The translations under genes were made by a program, and so were the position numbers. The notes under the pieces were generated by a model. The model saw nothing but the letters and a program-made list of their open reading frames with translations. It was not told the origin of the DNA and did not search any database. From a virus (lineage: Duplodnaviria; Heunggongvirae; Uroviricota; Caudoviricetes), in the IMG/VR virus record IMGVR_UViG_2737471853_000012, positions 1 to 21,314 of that record: a DNA stretch of 21,314 bases; one strand, written 5' to 3'. Shown here piece after piece: positions 1,568 through 14,285 of the stretch; position 1 is the first letter of the stretch, and each line of letters begins with the position of its first letter.

Positions 1568-1610
1568 TTAGCCCCCTCTTATTGCTGTGAGTCCTCTCAG
1601 AGTGAGGGGA

Positions 1611-1635
1611 AACAAAAAAGCCCCCAGTTGGGGGC
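1611..1635 (-). terminator. Intrinsic terminator on minus strand, candidate tR' (late-operon terminator read through by Q)
   Basis: On the minus strand: GCCCCC-AACT-GGGGGC hairpin (1620-1635) followed by TTTTTTGTTT (1611-1619), about 45 nt upstream of the holin start. Confidence 0.55.
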
Positions 1636-1821
1636 CATATGAAATGATAGTTTTATGTATTCATACCCTTCGAAATGCTTAAGCACATGTCTAAATCACA
1701 ACTCTTAGCATAGTAAGATAAAAAATGCGGACCGCGTTACTTTTTTTTGCTATGATGGAAGAACTCACATCATCTATGGCATGGGCTATCAAATTCAACT
1801 AAAACATCGAGATATAAATCA

Positions 1822-2118
1822 ATGAAATCAGTAATCTACGTAGAAAATTCTGATGAGGTTGAAGTTATTGGTAATTTTTCTAATATTGAAGCGCCATTAC
1901 TCGTAGCAAAAAATATAAAAAAACTCACCGCACAAAAAAACATTTGCACCAGTAATTCAACGCATTACGAAGTTGAAGATTGCGGAGAACTTATAGCTGA
2001 GAGTAATGTGGATTTAAAAAAACATAAAAACAAGAGGGTTAGTTTAACTGATGCCACACCTCGCTTTAAAGCGTCGATAGTTTATATATTAGTAATGAGA
2101 GCCATATATGGAAAATAA
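1822..2118 (+). CDS. Hypothetical protein in AT-rich island (moron candidate)
   Basis: 98-aa ORF in a markedly AT-rich segment (about 1640-2440) on the strand opposite to the flanking Q and lysis genes; no strong RBS seen. Confidence 0.4.
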   Translation: MKSVIYVENSDEVEVIGNFSNIEAPLLVAKNIKKLTAQKNICTSNSTHYEVEDCGELIAESNVDLKKHKNKRVSLTDATPRFKASIVYILVMRAIYGK

Positions 2119-2392
2119 TGACAAACCAATGTTTAAACTAAAGAATATTGACAAGGTCAATTTAAACAAAAACTCAACAACATCTAACACTCTTGCTAAC
2201 GCAGAAAACATTAAAGAATTTACTGCAAAAAATAATCAGGCAGGCTCAAATAGAAACGAAGACAAAAATAAAGACATTTCAAAAACCAGAAAAATTTATA
2301 ACTTCATTCTTAAAAACTCATGGACTATCTGCATTGCAGTTATAAGTGCAATTATAGTGGCGATAATAAAAACAAAACTTAATATCCCGTGA
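2108..2392 (+). CDS. Hypothetical Asn/Lys-rich protein with C-terminal transmembrane anchor (moron candidate)
   Basis: 94-aa ORF overlapping the previous ORF by 11 nt; C-terminal hydrophobic stretch WTICIAVISAIIVAIIKT; same AT-rich island. Confidence 0.4.
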   Translation: MENNDKPMFKLKNIDKVNLNKNSTTSNTLANAENIKEFTAKNNQAGSNRNEDKNKDISKTRKIYNFILKNSWTICIAVISAIIVAIIKTKLNIP

Positions 2393-2439
2393 CATCTTAA
2401 TAAAGCGGCGCTCATTAATAATTAGCACCGCTTCTTCTA

Positions 2440-2802
2440 TCAATCCATATTTAGTTTAATATCAAGCATTGAAAGGCAGCCATCAATAAACCCTTCTGCC
2501 ATCTGTATCTCAATGCGTATCAGCTTCTCGTCCTTCTTTCGCGCTTTGGCTATTTTCCGCTTCGAGATTCCAAAGAGATAGTGTGCAACCAAGAGCGAAT
2601 GTTCATATGGCTTTCGTTTTTGAAGTCGAGCTAAACACCCTTCGATAATCAGAGCGTCGTCGTCAGTGCAAGAAAGTCGGGATTTACTTGTTTGAGGAAG
2701 AAGCCCTTTGAAACCAGCCGCGATTGGTGAGTAATCCACGCCAGAGCTATCGCTCGCGGCCCATCCCCCCCAACGCTCTAACACCATCTGAATATCACGC
2801 AT
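2440..2802 (-). CDS. Late-gene antitermination protein Q (phage 82 / QuuD type)
   Basis: 120-aa ORF starting MRDIQMVLERWGGWAA, with AAGFKGLL and HYLFGISKRKIAKARKK segments matching the 82-type Q family as recalled; lies just before the tR'/lysis cassette. Confidence 0.8.
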   Translation of the reverse strand: MRDIQMVLERWGGWAASDSSGVDYSPIAAGFKGLLPQTSKSRLSCTDDDALIIEGCLARLQKRKPYEHSLLVAHYLFGISKRKIAKARKKDEKLIRIEIQMAEGFIDGCLSMLDIKLNMD

Positions 2803-9167: not shown

Positions 9168-9757
9168 CATTGCCACCTGTTCTCAAGAAGCGCCTGTCCG
9201 TTGCGAATGAGCTTGGCCTTGTCCTTCTCGCCAATCAGAAATGGCATTGGTTCGCGCAGGAATCCCGCGCGCATGTTCTGCGCATCATCCATGCCGATCA
9301 TCACCGTTTCGCACTTGCTGACGCCGGTTATCAGGTAAGAGCGGTAACGCTTTTCGAACTCGCGGGAACGGAACGGCAATTCCTCTTCGCTCATCCCGGC
9401 AAATTCAATCCACCCACCCATATCGGCAATGACCGCATGGATGATCGGATCATCAAACACAACGCTGTTGCGGCGCCCATAACTGCAGATTGCCCTGTAT
9501 GCTTTCGACCAGGCCATCAGCGCTTTGCCATCTTTGTTGCCTTCGATGTGACGAAGAAGATCCGCAGGCTTAGGGAAAAACTGGCCGTTGTCGGTATCGC
9601 GGGTATGCCCCTGGAAGGAGCGCATCACATCTTCAACCGGGTAAGGCTTGAGGGCATTCCAGTAAATACCCACCATCACCTCGGATATATCCTTTCCGTA
9701 AATCTCGCCGATCGCTGCCATGGACTGGGCGAACTTTGGTTTTTCAGAATCGTTCAT
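9167..9757 (-). CDS. Putative replication protein, P-like (helicase loader position)
   Basis: 196-aa ORF directly downstream of O with ATGA overlap; no Walker motif, so not DnaC-type. Assignment is positional. Confidence 0.45.
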   Translation of the reverse strand: MNDSEKPKFAQSMAAIGEIYGKDISEVMVGIYWNALKPYPVEDVMRSFQGHTRDTDNGQFFPKPADLLRHIEGNKDGKALMAWSKAYRAICSYGRRNSVVFDDPIIHAVIADMGGWIEFAGMSEEELPFRSREFEKRYRSYLITGVSKCETVMIGMDDAQNMRAGFLREPMPFLIGEKDKAKLIRNGQALLENRWQ

Positions 9758-10776
9758 CAGAAAAGTTCTCCTGAATCAGTGCCGCCAGCCCAGCGCTGGA
9801 GGGTTTCAAGGTTGCGAGCCGTTGTGGCTGAGTACTGGCCCTGAGCAATTGCCATTGCGTGAGCATCGCCGGCCATATCACGAAGTTTTTCGACCTGAGC
9901 AGCGTCTCGCAGGAGCGTCTCAATGCCGTCATAGCGCTTTCTGGAAGGGTTCTTTCCCATAAGCCACGGATCGCCTTTTGCGCCAGTTATGGCCCGGCAC
10001 AGCTCGTCCACAGTGAAGCCTTCCGCCAGTCGCGCCTTGATGCGCTTGCGGCGTTTGTCGTCGAGTTTTGCTGACGGGTGGTCATGTTCTTTCTGCCAGT
10101 GGGTGAAAACCAGTCTTACAGGGTCGGTCTTCGGCTGCTCCTGAATAACCGGATCGGGATCTGGTTTTCCACACTCGTCCCCAGCGGGGACTATAGGGGT
10201 TAGATCTGTTTTTATATTTGTCTTTGAAAGAATGTCTTTGGTGTTCCCTGTTTCCGGGGATACCTTTCCCTGTTTTTGGGGATGGTTATCCCTGTTTTCA
10301 GGGATGGTTGGCGCGGCTATTCTGCTATCCCTAATTTCAGGGATGGTGATAACCTGCGTTTCAACTTCAGCGACCGGAAAACTCACCGGACATTTAGGGC
10401 ATTTCGGTTTGGTATAAGCCCATGCATCCAGACAGGTGTTGATCCCGATGTATCGTGTTTGCCCAATCCTGCGAACCTTGATGATGTTGCGATAAGCAAG
10501 GCTGAGAACCGCTTCAGAAACGTGCTTAACCGCCAGCATGGTTTTGTCAGCGATGAGGCTGTTAGCGATCCGGTCTTCTTTTTTCGACCAGCCATACGTC
10601 AGGCGAACAATTGCATTCAGCACGCGAAATTCGCGCCCCGAAAGCTCCACTACACACAAGGCGTCCTGAATCTGGTTAGCAAGGCGCAGATAGCCATTGT
10701 CCAGATCAGCCATGCGACTCTCCTGCTGTACCTTTTCCGGCACAGGGAAATTGATTACTTCGGCAGTATTTGCCAT
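9757..10776 (-). CDS. O: Replication initiation protein O (replisome organiser) containing the origin iterons
   Basis: N-terminus MANTAEVINFPV...ADLDNGYLRLANQ resembles lambda O N-terminal domain; four iterons lie inside the coding region; AGGAG RBS. Confidence 0.8.
   Translation of the reverse strand: MANTAEVINFPVPEKVQQESRMADLDNGYLRLANQIQDALCVVELSGREFRVLNAIVRLTYGWSKKEDRIANSLIADKTMLAVKHVSEAVLSLAYRNIIKVRRIGQTRYIGINTCLDAWAYTKPKCPKCPVSFPVAEVETQVITIPEIRDSRIAAPTIPENRDNHPQKQGKVSPETGNTKDILSKTNIKTDLTPIVPAGDECGKPDPDPVIQEQPKTDPVRLVFTHWQKEHDHPSAKLDDKRRKRIKARLAEGFTVDELCRAITGAKGDPWLMGKNPSRKRYDGIETLLRDAAQVEKLRDMAGDAHAMAIAQGQYSATTARNLETLQRWAGGTDSGELF
10201..10343. repeat. Replication origin: four iterons plus adjacent AT-rich segment, inside the O gene
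   Basis: Palindromic iterons TCCCTGTTTCCGGGGA (10245-10260), TCCCTGTTTTTGGGGA (10267-10282), TCCCTGTTTTCAGGGA (10289-10304), TCCCTAATTTCAGGGA (10328-10343); first three at 22-bp spacing; AT-rich block at 10201-10240. Confidence 0.7.
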
Positions 10777-10861: not shown

Positions 10862-11083
10862 TCATGCTTCAAAATCACCTTTCTCTCCCGGCCTGTTAGA
10901 AATCAGGATGGCCAGCAGTAGCGACATGTTCGGCAGCAGACTTTCCCGCCAGCGACTCACCGTCGACTTATTCACTCCGGCCACTTTGGCGATATTCGTG
11001 GTTCCCAGTTCAGCTATCTGGCTGTGTAACCAGCTTTCTATCCTGCGAGCCTCCACTTTGTTGCGTGTCGTTGAACTCTCCAT
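10862..11083 (-). CDS. cII: Transcriptional activator CII
   Basis: 73-aa ORF with RIESWLHSQIAELGTTNIAKVAGVNKSTVSRWRES matching the lambda CII helix-turn-helix region as recalled; directly downstream of cro. Confidence 0.8.
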   Translation of the reverse strand: MESSTTRNKVEARRIESWLHSQIAELGTTNIAKVAGVNKSTVSRWRESLLPNMSLLLAILISNRPGEKGDFEA

Positions 11084-11162: not shown

Positions 11163-11354
11163 TTAATCAGGATTTCTGTTATGTGGGAAAGGCTTGATCT
11201 CCTCAGCCTTAATTTTTCCATCAGGCAGGGTGTTAACGAAAATCTTCCGCCCTACCCGGATAGCTTTACTAATTGCGGTCTGGTGAACGCCGATGGCATC
11301 AGCAGCTCTTGCCTGTCCAACTTCGTCAACGTATTCAGCTAAAGAAATTTTCAT
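11163..11354 (-). CDS. cro: Cro repressor
   Basis: 63-aa product from ATG 11352-11354 (MKISLAEYVDEVGQARAADAIGVHQTAISKAIRVGRKIFVNTLPDGKIKAEEIKPFP) aligns with lambda Cro as recalled; AGGAG RBS; divergent from cI. Confidence 0.85.
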   Translation of the reverse strand: MKISLAEYVDEVGQARAADAIGVHQTAISKAIRVGRKIFVNTLPDGKIKAEEIKPFPHNRNPD

Positions 11355-11383: not shown

Positions 11384-11452
11384 ACAATACCACAAGTATT
11401 AAACATTGCAATACCGCGAGTATTTTTAAAATAAGAACATTGGTATTACTAT
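11384..11452. promoter_or_regulatory. OR operator region with divergent PR and PRM promoters
   Basis: Two 15-bp palindromes AATACCACAAGTATT (11386-11400) and AATACCGCGAGTATT (11410-11424), plus a GGTATT half-site near 11442. Candidate PR on minus strand: -35 TTGCAA (11406-11411), -10 TATTGT (complement of 11384-11389). Candidate PRM -10 TACTAT (11447-11452) places the start at or near the cI ATG (leaderless). Confidence 0.6.
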
Positions 11453-11458
11453 TTGAAA

Positions 11459-12169
11459 ATGGAAAAGAAAAAGACACTGACATCGGCTCAGATCGCTGAC
11501 GCAGAAAGGCTGAAAGCCCTCTATGAAGCCAAGAAAAAAGAGCTTGGGATAACACAGCAATCAATAGCTGACATGCTAGACATATCTCAGGGGGGCGTTG
11601 GGCATTACTTGAATGGCAGGAATGCCCTTAATGCTGCCGTGGCTGCTGTTTTTGCCAGAGCCCTCCAGGTGGATGTCTCTGATTTTAGCCCCAGCCTTGC
11701 GAAAGAAATATCTGCAATGAGTGCTTCCGCTACATCGAATGCCAAGTATGCAGGCCAGTACACCCCAGGCATTAAATACCCTGTATTAAGCAAGATTCAG
11801 GCTGGGCATTGGTCGGAAGCGTGCGAGCCGTATGCACTTAAAGATATCGATCTATGGCTAGAATCAGACGCTCACATCCAGGGGGATGCGTTCTGGTTGT
11901 TGGTCGAGGGGGAATCCATGACTGCCCCGGTCGGGCTCAGCATACCAGAGGGTACCTACGTTTTGTTTGATACCGGCCGAGAGCCAGTAAATGGCAGCCT
12001 TGTGATCGCAAAGCTATCCGAATCAAACGAAGCGACATTCAAAAAGCTGATTATTGATGGGGGCCAGAAGTACCTGAAGGGCTTAAACCCTCAATGGCCA
12101 TTGGTTCCCATCAATGGGAATTGCCGGATCATTGGTGTGGCTGTAGAAACTAAGTTGAGACTTGTGTGA
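11459..12169 (+). CDS. cI: CI repressor (N-terminal HTH, C-terminal S24 LexA-like autocleavage domain)
   Basis: HTH segment QQSIADMLDISQGGVGHYLNGRN and S24-like C-terminus with GESMTAP and FKKL motifs; ATG at 11459 preferred over the TTG at 11453. Confidence 0.85.
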   Translation: MEKKKTLTSAQIADAERLKALYEAKKKELGITQQSIADMLDISQGGVGHYLNGRNALNAAVAAVFARALQVDVSDFSPSLAKEISAMSASATSNAKYAGQYTPGIKYPVLSKIQAGHWSEACEPYALKDIDLWLESDAHIQGDAFWLLVEGESMTAPVGLSIPEGTYVLFDTGREPVNGSLVIAKLSESNEATFKKLIIDGGQKYLKGLNPQWPLVPINGNCRIIGVAVETKLRLV

Positions 12170-12270
12170 TCAGCAGCATGCCGCGGACGTACAGGAAGCA
12201 TGGGTAGTCGGTAGTGGACTGACAAGGTGTTTGGGTGATGAGAAGATAGCAATAACTTAGAGGCTTAAAT

Positions 12271-13035
12271 GTGATCAGAATAGGAAGGTTACTACCTGGC
12301 GGCATTGCAATTGACGAAGGGCAACATCACCCGATAAAGGGCGTTGCTCTTTTGATAAAAGAAAATAGCGAACCAGAAGAGATTGTTGTTTTTGCAAAAG
12401 AAATATCTTCTAGGAGCATTTCTATAGAAATAACCTGCGCAGCCTTGGGAAGAGCTCTATCCCTGCCTATACCCGAGCCAGTACTACTGTTTGACAGCTC
12501 AAACAAAGCATTTTTTGGTAGTGTTGATGCTACCTATCCGAGTTTCATGAAGTATGTTTCTAACTCTTCAGATCAGGCCGTTTCTGATGCTTTGGCATCA
12601 TGGCCGTTATTGAAAAAAGCTAGCTATTTTGATGAGTGGATTGCGATGGATGACCGTCACAACGGAAATTTGCTTTTCAATGGTGATGGTTTCTTCCTGA
12701 TAGACCATGAATCGGCAATTCCCCAAGGTCTTGCCCCTGACCTTTTCGGGATAGATTATTACTCCAATCAATTGCTGCAGGTAGCAACTTACATACTCGA
12801 TAGAAGTAATGATATAGCCGTTCAGATGATGGCAAATGAGGCGAGAGCTTGGACCATGTCTTGCAAGAGTAACACCCTAACGCTATTAGATGGAGAGATA
12901 TCCGAAACAGTTCAAGGTAAAGAGAAAAATCAAATAATGTCTTTCCTTTCATCTAGAATTGAGTTACTAGGAGACATTCTTTATGATCAAATCAAGCCCC
13001 AACAAACACAGATGATATACGATGCTAAATCTTGA
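12271..13035 (+). CDS. HipA_C-like / kinase-fold protein in the cI (PRM) operon
   Basis: 254-aa ORF from GTG 12271 (RBS AGAGG 7 nt upstream; no in-frame ATG until residue 92). Catalytic-loop-like MDDRHNGNLLFNGDGFFLIDHESA matches the D-x-H-x-x-N ... D pattern of HipA_C/aminoglycoside-phosphotransferase-type kinases; AT-rich compared with cI. Confidence 0.6.
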   Translation: MIRIGRLLPGGIAIDEGQHHPIKGVALLIKENSEPEEIVVFAKEISSRSISIEITCAALGRALSLPIPEPVLLFDSSNKAFFGSVDATYPSFMKYVSNSSDQAVSDALASWPLLKKASYFDEWIAMDDRHNGNLLFNGDGFFLIDHESAIPQGLAPDLFGIDYYSNQLLQVATYILDRSNDIAVQMMANEARAWTMSCKSNTLTLLDGEISETVQGKEKNQIMSFLSSRIELLGDILYDQIKPQQTQMIYDAKS

Positions 13036-13903
13036 TCAGCTTCTTAAGTCAGCTCCTGCTATGCCTGCAACATCAGGGCGCTGGGCATCTGTTTATCTTG
13101 AACCAATGATCGGCTCAGGAGAGCGGCTCACGGTAGCAGTTGCCACGATAACATCATCTGGTGAAATTTTAGTTAAGCCGGCAATCAGAAAAGAAGTTAT
13201 AGAAGCTATGTATGGCTTCAAAGCACCAGCATTTATCAATGTGGTTGATCTGATTTTGTCGAGTTTGAAGTTGCATCTGGCTGCTAAGGGGGATTTCGTA
13301 TCATGGCATCCTCCAGTTACAGGCGTCACTATAAGCGCCGTAAGGAATGCTGCGTCATCAAGCCCTGTTGGCATACTCCGCCAAGCGGTATCATTGTCAT
13401 CGAGTTTGTCATCACTCCTTGAGGCTGAAGAAGATTCCGATGGGTTGCCAGCTAAGCAATCAAGAACTAAAGACAGGTGGCCAATTCAAATCTTTGATGC
13501 GGTTATCAGCGCTGACGGACGCAGGGATATTTTTTTCAATAGAAGCTTCACCTTTAGTGATGGACACAGACCGGCTAAAATTTTCTATCTAAGCGATCAT
13601 GCAGCTATCAACACCGGAAAACTGTTACCCCACAACTTGAATGAGCAGGTTAAGGATGGAAAAGCAAAAATATCTGACTTATCAATGATAAAAAGGCAAG
13701 GCGATATTTTTCCAAGAGAAACTCATCAAATGATTATCTACAAACCGGAAGATGATAGCCCTGCATACAATGATAGGCACATAGCATCAATAAATAGTGC
13801 GTACCTTTCTTTACAGGACTTGGCTAACACCTACGATGTATCAATCACTTCTGTAAGCACTGCCGAGCATGCAGCAAGGTTAATATTGCAAACTGCAGCA
13901 TAA
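13022..13903 (+). CDS. Hypothetical protein, partner of the kinase-fold protein
   Basis: 293-aa ORF whose ATG overlaps the last 14 nt of the upstream gene (translational coupling); Ser-rich middle segment; no motif recognised. Confidence 0.6.
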   Translation: MLNLDQLLKSAPAMPATSGRWASVYLEPMIGSGERLTVAVATITSSGEILVKPAIRKEVIEAMYGFKAPAFINVVDLILSSLKLHLAAKGDFVSWHPPVTGVTISAVRNAASSSPVGILRQAVSLSSSLSSLLEAEEDSDGLPAKQSRTKDRWPIQIFDAVISADGRRDIFFNRSFTFSDGHRPAKIFYLSDHAAINTGKLLPHNLNEQVKDGKAKISDLSMIKRQGDIFPRETHQMIIYKPEDDSPAYNDRHIASINSAYLSLQDLANTYDVSITSVSTAEHAARLILQTAA

Positions 13904-13910
13904 CTTTTGA

Positions 13911-13933
13911 TCCGGCCACCGCGCCGGGTTTTT
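13911..13933 (+). terminator. Intrinsic terminator closing the cI operon
   Basis: CCGGC (13912-13916) pairs with GCCGG (13923-13927) across a 6-nt loop, followed by TTTTT (13929-13933); 8 nt after the stop of the 293-aa gene. Confidence 0.5.
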
Positions 13934-13939
13934 ACTGCC

Positions 13940-14143
13940 CTACTCTTCCCTCAGCATCAGCACGTCCAGCGCCAACTCCACAGCCAGATCGACCTGGTCT
14001 TCCTGCCACAACACCTGAATCATCTCTATCAGCGCCTCTCTTGAGGGCTCGCGCTTCTCAACCAGCAGTTGCATAACCGCTATCCCGATGACCTGCGCTA
14101 TCTGCGGGTGCATTTCTGCGAAAAACTCATCCTCATTTGACAT
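13940..14143 (-). CDS. Small acidic hypothetical protein
   Basis: 67-aa ORF convergent on the cI operon, with RBS AAGGGGTG upstream of ATG 14141-14143; rich in Glu/Asp; lies between the module terminator and OL. Confidence 0.5.
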   Translation of the reverse strand: MSNEDEFFAEMHPQIAQVIGIAVMQLLVEKREPSREALIEMIQVLWQEDQVDLAVELALDVLMLREE

Positions 14144-14243
14144 GCCAACACCCCTTTATGATGTTTTTTTGAGCATAACAGCACTTTTTACAAAAATAAA
14201 TTAACTTTAAAATCATACCTTTAGTATTTTTATTAAACATAAT

Positions 14244-14285
14244 AATACTGGCGGTATTGATATAAAATAATACCAGGAGTATTAT
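14244..14285 (+). promoter_or_regulatory. OL operator pair overlapping the PL promoter
   Basis: Palindromes AATACTGGCGGTATT (14244-14258) and AATACCAGGAGTATT (14269-14283) share the AATAC-N5-GTATT pattern of the OR sites; -35 TTGATA (14257-14262), 17-bp spacer, -10 TATTAT (14280-14285), reading rightward. Confidence 0.65.

What the first reader, a model, noticed from the sequence alone, without database searches (positions are those of the whole stretch)
12256..13933. Two-gene kinase-fold module occupying the rexAB slot downstream of cI: candidate undescribed exclusion/abortive-infection system
In lambda the genes transcribed with cI from PRM are rexA-rexB, a lysogen-expressed exclusion system, and this slot is a known hotspot for prophage-encoded defence. 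Here it holds an AT-rich two-gene operon instead: a 254-aa protein that is essentially a stand-alone HipA_C-like kinase domain (MDDRHNGNLLFNGDGFFLIDHESA) and a 293-aa partner with no motif I recognise. The two are translationally coupled by a 14-nt overlap and are followed by an intrinsic terminator. The lower GC than the flanking cI points to horizontal acquisition. A minimal HipA-like kinase with an unknown partner, expressed in the lysogen, would plausibly act by phosphorylating a host or phage target on superinfection. Neither protein resembles RexA, RexB or SieB.
Basis: partly seen in the sequence, partly recalled or inferred. Interest (0 to 1): 0.88.

Follow-up and report, generated by a model that had tools for sequence, protein, structure and literature searches.

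The report
Prophage kinase–partner defence cassette beside cI
Just downstream of the repressor gene of a lambda-like prophage sits a two-gene cassette (a small HipA-like kinase plus an uncharacterised partner) that is a divergent, currently unannotated relative of the recently validated HipAD/DS-6 anti-phage system, so it is an interesting variant rather than a new kind of system.

Summary
Two overlapping genes, 12271-13035 (254 aa) and 13022-13903 (293 aa), lie between cI and the left operator of a lambdoid prophage. This is the slot that holds rexA-rexB in a related Klebsiella phage with the same junction sequences.

- **Kinase.** The first protein has a protein-kinase-like fold of the HipA/CtkA/PI3-4K type, with invariant catalytic residues.
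- **Partner.** The second has two α/β domains, one resembling a restriction-endonuclease fold. It matches no Pfam or PADLOC model and belongs to a family of at least 718 clusters.
- **Pairing.** The two genes are coupled in 40 of 42 further loci; in the other two one of the genes is cut short.

The system is not undescribed in kind. A HipA_2 kinase plus a DUF3037/DUF1829 partner (PDC-M66, DS-6, "HipAD") was validated as a kinase-dependent, toxin-antitoxin-like phage defence in 2025-2026. That system occupies the same cI-downstream slot, in one case between the same junctions.

The window's kinase is a distant homologue of DS-6A (hhalign 97.7%). Homology between the partner and DUF3037 is inconclusive.

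My best reading is a lysogen-expressed, HipAD-like kinase/antitoxin defence cassette, and a new variant of a known kind. Function is inferred, not tested.

The parts
11163..11354 (-). cro gene, divergent from cI
   Evidence: Pfam Cro PF09048, E 7.8e-23. The RefSeq annotation of the identical prophage places the Cro/CI regulator here (L001 coordinate minus 745).
11386..11424 (.). Right operator (OR): two ATAC-N5-GTATT palindromic sites between cro and cI. PRM and PR are presumed to lie here.
   Evidence: Repeat search and pattern search. There are 10 strand-matches in the window, all at OR or OL; 0 of 100 shuffles reach 10.
11459..12169 (+). cI-type repressor (HTH_3 + Peptidase_S24). The longest ORF starts at 11453 (TTG); RefSeq calls the start at 11459.
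   Evidence: Pfam Peptidase_S24 E 2.7e-22 and HTH_3 E 1.2e-8. It is 44% identical to the cI of an E. coli lambdoid prophage that carries HipA_2+DUF3037.
12166..12206 (.). Conserved left junction: the end of cI plus 37 nt
   Evidence: blastn shows it is shared with the sister prophage L065 (homology ends at 12206), with the rexAB phage L064, and with the HipA_2+DUF3037 prophage L060.
12207..13911 (+). The exchangeable cargo cassette (1705 bp, low GC)
   Evidence: Homology with the sister prophage L065 (same cro-cI, 99.7% identity) breaks at 12206 and resumes at 13912. GC is 42.4% and GC3 is 37%.
12260..12263 (+). Shine-Dalgarno GAGG, with 7 nt between it and the GTG start
   Evidence: Read directly from the sequence.
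12271..13035 (+). Minimal HipA_2-like kinase (254 aa). Candidate catalytic residues are K43, E53, D128, N133, D145 and H146.
   Evidence: - **Sequence models:** Pfam HipA_2 25.5 bits; PADLOC PDC-M66A E 2e-6.
- **Conservation:** the named residues are invariant in 48 homologues.
- **Structure:** AF2 pLDDT 86. Foldseek against the PDB finds CtkA at 8.8e-8, then VPS34/PI4K and HipA at about 1e-5.
- **Link to DS-6A:** hhalign of the family profile gives 97.7%, E 1.7e-12.
13022..13903 (+). Partner protein (293 aa): N-terminal α/β domain (about 1-126) with a conserved E27-P28-x3-S32-G33-E34-R35 motif, a disordered acidic linker (130-148), and a C-terminal α/β domain (about 153-293).
   Evidence: - **No sequence match:** nothing in Pfam, PADLOC, NCBIfam or PDB sequences. 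phrog_21150 (unknown function) matches at 2e-139.
- **Conservation:**
- **Linkage:** a full-length partner follows the kinase in 40 of 42 further loci.
13909..13933 (+). Terminator-like hairpin (8-bp stem, 6-nt loop) with a U5 run. It is part of the conserved right flank.
   Evidence: RNA fold -13.2 kcal/mol, z -2.1. It was not listed by the consensus scan. The flank homology shared with L064, L065 and L060 starts at 13912.
13940..14143 (-). Convergent 67-aa gene of unknown function, a conserved flank marker
   Evidence: phrog_3946 E 1e-39. It is about 91% identical at the DNA level to Klebsiella phage sequences. It lies next to rexB in phage ST101-KPC2phi6.1 and is a pseudogene in the sister E. 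coli prophages.
14214..14283 (.). Left operator (OL): three ATAC-N5-GTATT sites in an AT-rich intergenic region. PL is presumed to lie here.
   Evidence: The region is 37% GC. Downstream + strand genes run into recE/recT.

Best explanation
The cassette at window 12207-13911 is most likely a prophage-encoded, kinase-based anti-phage system of the toxin-antitoxin type. It is a divergent branch of the HipA_2-kinase + two-domain-partner systems known as PDC-M66, DS-6 or HipAD.

**Proposed working**
1. In the lysogen the two genes are read through from cI (PRM), as rexAB is in lambda, and translated as a coupled pair.
2. The partner binds the 254-aa kinase and holds it inactive, acting as antitoxin and sensor.
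3. Infection by another phage disturbs the complex.
4. The freed kinase phosphorylates an essential host or phage protein. D128 would act as the base, and N133 and D145 would bind Mg-ATP.
5. Growth or phage development stops (abortive infection or exclusion).

**Shown here**
- the genes, their coupling and their kinase fold
- the invariant catalytic residues
- the strict kinase-partner linkage
- the position inside the immunity region
- the allelic exchange of this cassette with rexAB and with HipA_2+DUF3037 cassettes

**Inferred**
- co-transcription with cI
- binding of the kinase by the partner
- toxicity, the trigger, the target, and any defence phenotype
For: **Kinase**
- AF2 model with pLDDT 86. 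Best PDB matches are CtkA, VPS34/PI4K and HipA.
- K43, E53, D128, R129, N133, D145 and H146 are invariant in 48 homologues down to 26% identity.
- The family profile matches DS-6A at 97.7% probability, E 1.7e-12, over 165 columns. It also matches PADLOC PDC-M66A at 2e-6.

**Same architecture as DS-6**
- DS-6 has the kinase first (249 aa), then a 275-aa two-domain partner, with a 4-nt overlap. The window has 254 aa, then 293 aa, with a 14-nt overlap.
- The DS-6B C-terminus is DUF1829-like by the authors' HHpred. The window partner has a restriction-endonuclease-like domain and matches a viral DUF1828-domain protein by Foldseek (E 4e-4).

**Experimental basis for the kind (taken from papers)**
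- Deleting the kinase abolishes defence, and deleting the DUF3037 gene is toxic (PMC12548924).
- DS-6A D139A loses defence (PMC13092281).

**Position**
- The module lies between cI and OL.
- HipA_2+DUF3037 pairs sit directly after cI in Klebsiella and E. coli lambdoid prophages. L060 shares both junction sequences with the window.
- The same junctions enclose rexA-rexB in Klebsiella phage ST101-KPC2phi6.1. They enclose a DUF6932 + 305-aa pair in E. coli prophages with the same cro-cI.
- 37 complete E. coli genomes carry this cro-cI, but only 4 carry this cassette.

**Linkage and mobility**
- In 40 of 42 further loci the kinase is directly followed, on the same strand, by a full-length partner-family gene, overlapping or within a few nt; in the other two one of the genes is cut short.
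- A cI/Xre gene lies directly upstream in at least 17 distinct loci.
- The pair also occurs in tail-region moron slots (Kluyvera; Acinetobacter phage) and in Alteromonas phage P24 after an HTH gene.

**Transcription and composition**
- No terminator or significant structure lies in the cI-kinase spacer.
- The low GC and GC3 mark the cassette as foreign.
Against: - **No experiment.** Nothing has been tested on this cassette. Neither WP_001548450/449 nor the peptide strings occur in the held DefensePredictor supplements, some of which were cut when stored.
- **Partner not shown to be homologous to DS-6B/DUF3037.**
  - hmmscan finds nothing.
  - PADLOC PDC-M66B finds nothing, including for distant family members.
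  - hhalign family against family gives 1.2% probability, E 0.042. A block-shuffle control reaches that score in 3 of 60 trials.
- **Kinase is far from DS-6A.** It scores 25.5 bits on HipA_2 against 258 bits for DS-6A. BLASTP aligns only 53 residues at 34% identity. Target and regulation may therefore differ.
- **Expression not measured.** Co-transcription with cI is inferred from layout only.
- **Non-phage contexts.** About half of the distant loci are flanked by housekeeping genes with no obvious prophage.
- **Substrate unknown.** The protein substrate is assumed. The fold class also includes lipid and small-molecule kinases.
Confidence: 0.68

Rival explanations
1. The partner is the effector and the kinase is the sensor or regulator. 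The partner's restriction-endonuclease-like domain would cut nucleic acid once it is phosphorylated, for example on the Ser-rich SLSSSLSSL segment before the acidic linker.
For: - S128 and L129 are invariant in the close family, next to a disordered linker.
Against: - No D...(D/E)xK-type set of acidic and lysine residues is conserved on the central strands across 96 family members.
- The best-conserved polar residues of the C-domain are K214, K216, D219 and position 236. Position 236 is E in 78% of members but Q in the window protein.
- The top hit, the ERCC1 central domain, is itself a non-catalytic nuclease fold (established knowledge).
- In the related Sda1 system, deleting the DUF3037 gene is toxic and deleting the kinase abolishes defence. 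That makes the kinase the toxin.
Confidence: 0.1
2. The pair is a plain addiction (toxin-antitoxin) module, or a persistence module. It would stabilise the prophage or slow host growth under stress, with no role against other phages.
For: - Canonical HipA kinases are toxins of TA modules linked to persistence (PMC8262856).
- The architecture is a tightly coupled pair.
- Many distant loci lie between housekeeping genes with no visible prophage.
Against: - The slot holds rexAB and the validated HipAD type in sister phages.
- The related HipA_2 systems defend against phage in two independent studies.
- The cassette also appears in other moron slots of phages.
Confidence: 0.1
3. The kinase acts on a non-protein substrate (a lipid, nucleotide or other small molecule), or it serves the prophage's own biology, such as tuning induction or lysogenic conversion. 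It would not be a defence toxin.
For: - The structural neighbours include PI3K/PI4K lipid kinases as strongly as HipA.
- One source names a Pseudomonas homologue 'phosphatidylinositol 4-kinase'.
- The substrate of the whole HipA_2 family is not stated in the papers I read.
Against: - The closest structural match, CtkA, and the sequence-profile relatives HipA_2/DS-6A and RIO-type kinases are protein kinases.
- Strict coupling to a non-enzymatic-looking partner, plus allelic exchange with known defence cassettes, fits a defence module better.
Confidence: 0.07

Closest known systems
HipAD / DS-6 / PADLOC candidate PDC-M66 (HipA_2 kinase + DUF3037-DUF1829 protein). Sources: DeWeirdt, Mahoney & Laub, Science 2026 (PMC13092281), which cites Brenes & Laub, Cell Host Microbe 2025 for HipAD; and the Retron-Sda1 operon study, PLoS Biol 2025 (PMC12548924).
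   Same: - **Kinase:** small (about 250 aa), single-domain and homologous (hhalign 97.7%; PDC-M66A E 2e-6).
- **Gene layout:** the kinase gene comes first and overlaps a partner gene of about 280 aa.
- **Partner architecture:** two domains, with a nuclease-fold-like C-terminal half.
- **Position:** directly after cI in lambdoid prophages, in one case between the same junction sequences as the window.
   Different: - **Kinase divergence:** 25.5 bits on HipA_2 against 258 bits for DS-6A.
- **Partner:** it does not match DUF3037, PDC-M66B or the DS-6B family with any significance. It forms its own family of at least 718 clusters, none of the 96 scanned members matching DUF3037.
- **Detection:** PADLOC v2 models match the kinase only weakly and the partner not at all.
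- **Testing:** this branch has not been tested experimentally.
Lambda RexA-RexB (lysogen-expressed exclusion system co-transcribed with cI)
   Same: - It occupies the same slot and orientation: cI, then two genes, then a terminator, then OL/PL.
- A Klebsiella phage with the same junctions carries rexA-rexB there.
- Both are presumed to be expressed in the lysogen and to act on superinfecting phage.
   Different: - There is no sequence or family match to RexA or RexB.
- Rex works through a sensor and a membrane ion channel (established knowledge). This cassette has a soluble kinase and no predicted membrane protein.
Canonical HipBA, HipBST and the short Hip kinases with downstream HipS/HipN-type antitoxins (Gerdes et al., mBio 2021, PMC8262856)
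   Same: - The kinase fold is HipA-like, with a catalytic D...N and a Mg-binding D.
- In some short-kinase families the putative antitoxin is also encoded downstream.
- Those authors also proposed abortive infection by kinase activation for such modules.
   Different: - It is shorter than the short Hip kinases (279-321 aa), and no HipA N-terminal family matches.
- No HipB belongs to the cassette; the upstream HTH protein is the phage repressor.
- The partner shows no match to any Pfam family, so no HipS or HIRAN domain was detected.
- By sequence the kinase is nearer to HipA_2 than to any other Pfam family, HipA_C included.
Stk of phage 933W (prophage tyrosine kinase next to cI that aborts HK97 infection; Friedman et al. 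2011, recalled from memory, not read here)
   Same: It is a prophage kinase encoded beside the repressor, expressed in the lysogen, activated by a superinfecting phage, and leads to self-inflicted abortive infection. This is the same logic as proposed here.
   Different: - Stk is a single eukaryotic-type kinase without a dedicated partner.
- The window kinase gives no Pkinase-family Pfam match and is always paired.

Membership tests
HipA_2 kinase family (Pfam PF20613) | Score at or above the Pfam gathering threshold on the HipA_2 model | tested here: inconclusive
   25.5 bits against a cut-off of 27, covering only profile positions 27-157 of 240. The database's precomputed annotation with PF20613.5 does assign the identical protein P0001 and most homologues. 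DS-6A scores 258 bits.
HipA_2 kinase family (Pfam PF20613) | Kinase fold with the catalytic-loop D-x4-N, the Mg-binding D (IDH) and the Lys/Glu pair conserved | tested here: met
   K43, E53, D128, N133, D145 and H146 are invariant. AF2 plus Foldseek finds CtkA, PI3/4K and HipA. hhalign to DS-6A gives 97.7%.
HipAD / DS-6 / PDC-M66 defence system | Partner protein with a DUF3037 domain (PDC-M66B) | tested here: inconclusive
   - There is no Pfam DUF3037 hit for the window protein or for 96 family members.
- There is no PDC-M66B hit.
- hhalign family against family gives 1.2% probability, E 0.042. The alignment is co-linear over 236 columns, and a shuffle control reaches the score in 3 of 60 trials.
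HipAD / DS-6 / PDC-M66 defence system | Two-gene operon with the kinase first and the partner second, tightly coupled | tested here: met
   The window has a 14-nt overlap. The same order and coupling hold in 40 of 42 further loci. DS-6 has a 4-nt overlap in the same order.
HipAD / DS-6 / PDC-M66 defence system | Kinase-dependent protection against phage, and toxicity of the kinase without the partner | not testable with these tools
   This was shown only for DS-6 and the Sda1-linked system.
Lambda RexAB | RexA and RexB protein families | tested here: not met
   No RexA or RexB Pfam match at E <= 1. Only the genomic slot is shared.
Canonical HipBA toxin-antitoxin | HipA N-terminal subdomains, plus a HipB HTH antitoxin encoded by the module | tested here: not met
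   The protein is 254 aa, and HipA_2 is its only Pfam hit at E <= 1. The upstream HTH protein is the prophage cI, with an S24 domain and a divergent cro. The exchangeable cassette starts after cI.
PD-(D/E)xK nucleases (partner C-terminal domain) | Conserved acidic residues and lysine on the core strands | tested here: not met

The most novel reading that the evidence does not exclude
The partner family is not a diverged DUF3037 protein but an independent sensor/antitoxin that a distinct clade of HipA_2-like kinases recruited. It has at least 718 clusters and a near-invariant E-P-x3-S-G-E-R motif. If so, this would be a separate kinase-partner defence system with its own trigger, possibly with an enzymatic antitoxin that uses the conserved Glu/Ser/Glu site. 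It is widespread in Proteobacteria and missed by current defence finders.
Probability: 0.25. Interest if true: 0.6.

Novelty: new variant of a known kind. Interest (0 to 1): 0.45.

Why it matters
- **Missed by current tools.** If the cassette defends, a large and strictly paired family is being overlooked: a kinase clade plus a partner family of at least 718 clusters, spread across Gamma- and Betaproteobacteria and one Verrucomicrobiota genome. In the PADLOC v2 models searched here the kinase matches only weakly and the partner not at all, and in the 2025 Pfam copy used here the kinase scores just below threshold and the partner not at all.
- **A natural experiment.** The same cI-downstream junctions carry four different two-gene cargoes: rexAB, HipA_2+DUF3037, a DUF6932 pair, and this cassette. 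Isogenic prophages differing only in cargo could be compared directly.
- **A test of what the partner does.** Comparing this partner with DUF3037 partners could show which parts sense phage and which restrain the kinase.
- **The limit.** The mechanism class, a kinase toxin restrained by a partner, is already established for the sister system. The gain is breadth and specificity, not a new principle.

Tried and rejected
- **Sequence routes to the partner's function.** Pfam, NCBIfam and PADLOC found nothing, PHROGs matched only an unknown-function family, and PDB searches with three profiles found nothing.
- **Pfam scan of distant partner relatives.** Of 96 members scanned, only two stray single-member hits appeared.
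- **Foldseek against AFDB50.** The library was not available. I used BFVD instead, which mostly returned unnamed proteins.
- **The search for related loci with the broad partner alignment.** I used the kinase alignment instead.
- **Brenes & Laub 2025 (HipAD).** The paper is not held by PubMed id or DOI, so details of HipAD come only from papers that cite it.
- **Canonical nuclease idea for the partner.** Rejected because no catalytic residues are conserved.
- **Own promoter or terminator between cI and the kinase.** No site was predicted there and no significant fold was found.
- **Terminator as part of the acquired cassette.** Rejected, because flank homology starts at 13912.
- **Splitting the partner into halves for hhalign.** This gave only weak co-linear signals: N against N E 0.09, C against C E 0.005, and worse for the cross pairs.
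Full report
**1. What is in the sequence**

The window is a lambdoid prophage. The region of interest is 100% identical over 12256-13933 to a prophage of E. coli ECCRA-119 integrated next to kch/cls. Identical proteins are also recorded from Klebsiella.

The gene order around the finding is as follows:
- replication O (9757-10776, minus strand)
- cII (10862-11083, minus)
- cro (11163-11354, minus)
- cI-type repressor with HTH_3 and Peptidase_S24 domains (11459-12169, plus)
- ORF A (12271-13035, plus; 254 aa; GTG start preceded by GAGG)
- ORF B (13022-13903, plus; 293 aa)
- a hairpin with a U-run (13909-13933)
- a convergent 67-aa gene (13940-14143, minus)
- an AT-rich intergenic region
- plus-strand early genes running into recE/recT

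ORF A and ORF B overlap by 14 nt. The quoted peptide is at residues 126-149 of A.

The module is 42.4% GC (GC3 37%), against 49.2% (GC3 52%) for cI and 50.6% for the window.

**2. The module lies inside the immunity region, in a cargo hotspot**

A 14-nt palindrome, ATAC-N5-GTATT, occurs twice between cro and cI (11386-11424). It occurs three times in the AT-rich region at 14214-14283, and nowhere else in the window. None of 100 shuffles reaches that count. These are the right and left operators, so A and B lie between cI and OL, as rexA-rexB do in lambda.

blastn against related elements fixes the cassette boundaries. A sister E. coli prophage (L065) has the same cro-cI at 99.7% identity. It is homologous to the window up to 12206 and again from 13912. 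Between those points it carries a DUF6932-family gene and a 305-aa gene instead.

| Element | Cargo between the junctions (12166-12206 / 13912 onward) |
|---|---|
| Window prophage | kinase + partner |
| E. coli SUISSEKPC3NDM5 and strain 98202 | DUF6932 protein + 305-aa protein |
| Klebsiella phage ST101-KPC2phi6.1 | rexA + rexB |
| Klebsiella prophage L060 | HipA_2 kinase + DUF3037 protein |

Thirty-seven complete E. coli genomes carry this cro-cI, but only four carry the A-B cassette.

The hairpin terminator starts at the point where flank homology resumes. It therefore belongs to the conserved flank, not to the cassette.

Between cI and A there is no predicted terminator, no promoter-like site and no significant RNA structure. 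Read-through from the cI promoter is plausible but was not shown.

**3. Protein A is a minimal kinase**

- **Sequence models.** Pfam gives only HipA_2 (PF20613) at 25.5 bits, just under the cut-off of 27. PADLOC gives PDC-M66A at 2e-6.
- **Conservation.** A 48-member alignment reaching 26% identity keeps K43, E53, D128, R129, N133, D145 and H146 invariant. This is the Lys/Glu pair, the catalytic loop D-x4-N and the Mg-binding Asp of protein-kinase-like enzymes.
- **Structure.** The AlphaFold2 model is confident (pLDDT 86). Its best PDB matches are H. pylori CtkA (8.8e-8), VPS34/PI4K and HipA (about 1e-5).
- **Size.** At 254 aa it is shorter than the short Hip kinases described by Gerdes et al. 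(279-321 aa). It has no HipA N-terminal domain.

**4. Protein B is an uncharacterised two-domain protein, always paired with A**

B matches nothing in Pfam, NCBIfam, PADLOC or PDB sequences. Its only match is an unknown-function PHROG.

A profile search finds 718 clusters at 50% identity. Nearly all of the 150 best-scoring ones listed are about 290 aa long and match over their full length. None of the 96 scanned members matches DUF3037 or any other family in more than one member.

Across that family the near-invariant residues are E27, P28, S32, G33 and E34 (with R35), plus W95 and the position of S105, which is Gly in 92% of members, all in the N-domain. F172 and L220 are also near-invariant. 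No nuclease-type acidic/lysine set is conserved, and position 236, usually Glu, is Gln in the window protein. B therefore looks non-catalytic, at least as a nuclease.

In 40 of 42 further loci (14 from lookups of homologues, 28 of the 43 from a scan of species-representative genomes) the kinase gene is directly followed, on the same strand, by a full-length partner-family gene. The two genes overlap or lie within a few nucleotides of each other. In the other two loci one of the genes is cut short.

**5. Where the pair occurs**

The pair sits directly after a cI/Xre-type gene in several settings:
- prophages of Pseudomonas syringae, Morganella, Shewanella and Methylocucumis
- Alteromonas phage P24
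- at least 17 distinct loci overall

In Morganella a DUF3024 gene is inserted before the pair and gene N follows it. The pair also sits in the tail-gene moron slot of a Kluyvera prophage, and in the tail region of an Acinetobacter phage with its own Arc-like regulators. Many distant copies lie between housekeeping genes. This is the distribution of a mobile accessory cassette.

**6. Comparison with what is known**

Full-text search led to two papers.

*PMC12548924.* This paper reports that HipA-like kinase + DUF3037 pairs are PADLOC candidate PDC-M66. In the Retron-Sda1 operon, deleting the kinase abolishes defence against phage Bas51, and deleting the DUF3037 gene is toxic.

*PMC13092281 (DefensePredictor).* This paper validated DS-6, which its authors had also found in E. 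coli prophages and renamed HipAD. DS-6A is a 249-aa HipA-family kinase. DS-6B is 275 aa, with DUF3037 and, more weakly, DUF1829. The D139A mutant loses defence, and AF3 predicts an A-B complex. The paper's supplements gave me both sequences.

Tests against the window proteins:

| Comparison | Result |
|---|---|
| Kinase family profile vs DS-6A (hhalign) | 97.7% probability, E 1.7e-12, 165 columns |
| Kinase vs DS-6A (BLASTP) | only the catalytic core aligns: 53 aa, 34% identity |
| HipA_2 Pfam score | DS-6A 258 bits; window kinase 25.5 bits |
| Partner vs DS-6B (BLASTP) | nothing |
| Partner family profile vs single DS-6B sequence | nothing |
| Partner family vs a 42-member DS-6B family alignment | 1.2% probability, E 0.042; co-linear over 236 columns, pairing Y-x-E-P-x3-S-G-E-R with R-F-x-P-x3-T-E-E-F |
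| Block-shuffle control of that score | reached in 3 of 60 trials |
| Domain halves | N vs N E 0.09; C vs C E 0.005; cross pairs worse |
| PADLOC PDC-M66B | hits DS-6B (4e-16) but none of five partner-family members |

Homology of the two partner families is therefore possible but not shown.

HipA_2+DUF3037 pairs occupy the same cI-downstream position in Klebsiella and E. coli lambdoid prophages. One of them lies between the same junctions as the window cassette.

**7. Most likely function and mechanism**

The cassette is best read as a divergent branch of the HipAD-type systems.
1. It would be expressed in the lysogen together with cI.
2. The partner would restrain the kinase.
3. A superinfecting phage would release the kinase.
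4. Phosphorylation of an essential host or phage protein would then stop the infection.

What is shown is the anatomy: the fold, the catalytic residues, the strict pairing, the slot and the allelic exchange with known defence cargo. Expression, interaction, toxicity, trigger, target and phenotype are all inferred by analogy.

I put about 0.68 on a kinase-dependent anti-phage role. The rivals are:
- the partner as a nuclease effector, weakened by the missing catalytic residues and by the Sda1 genetics
- a pure addiction or persistence module
- a non-protein substrate, or a role in the prophage's own biology

**8. Novelty and verdict**

The system is not undescribed in kind. It is a new variant of a known kind, for three reasons:
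- the kinase is a distant homologue
- the partner belongs to a large family that no curated model recognises
- the PADLOC v2 models match the kinase only weakly and the partner not at all

Interest is moderate. The cassette is a good, cheap target for validation, and the four-cargo hotspot is a useful natural experiment, but the principle is already established.

Noticed in passing
window 13940-14143 (- strand): A 67-aa gene (phrog_3946, unknown function) lies convergent to the cassette, between the terminator and OL. It is conserved next to whatever cargo fills the slot, including rexB in Klebsiella phage ST101-KPC2phi6.1. It is a pseudogene (internal stop) in the sister E. coli prophages.
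   Followed up: partly
window 1600-2440: A strongly AT-rich island (GC 31-39%) lies between the Q antiterminator gene (2440-2802, -) and a holin gene (1172-1567, -). It holds two overlapping + strand ORFs (1822-2118, 98 aa; 2108-2392, 94 aa) with no Pfam match. This looks like a second moron slot, in the position where Stx phages carry toxin genes. The ECCRA-119 prophage appears to differ from the window here: its annotated genes, shifted into window coordinates, do not match the window's ORFs. I did not align the two.
   Followed up: partly
L065 5831-7332 (E. coli SUISSEKPC3NDM5) and L066: Sister prophages with the same cro-cI carry a different overlapping two-gene cargo in the slot: a DUF6932-family protein (195 aa) and a 305-aa hypothetical protein. 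By position this is another candidate defence pair.
   Followed up: no
L005 7633-8974 (Methylocucumis oryzae prophage): Here the kinase-partner pair is followed, on the same strand and with almost no gap, by two extra genes: a 324-aa protein with no Pfam match and a 126-aa DUF4325 (STAS-like) protein. This may be a four-gene version of the module.
   Followed up: no
L008-L010 4632-4973 (Morganella morganii prophages): A DUF3024 gene (113 aa) is inserted between cI and the kinase. The antiterminator N gene follows the partner, which reproduces the lambda order cI, cargo, N.
   Followed up: no
window 11386-11424 and 14214-14283: The operator consensus ATAC-N5-GTATT was found twice at OR and three times at OL. 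A third OR site, if present, is too degenerate for a search allowing one mismatch.
   Followed up: partly
window 13397-13435 (partner residues ~126-138): A Ser/Leu-rich stretch (SLSSSLSSL) lies just before the disordered acidic linker. S128 and L129 are invariant in the close family and about 75% conserved in the broad family. It could be a phosphorylation site or a degron.
   Followed up: no
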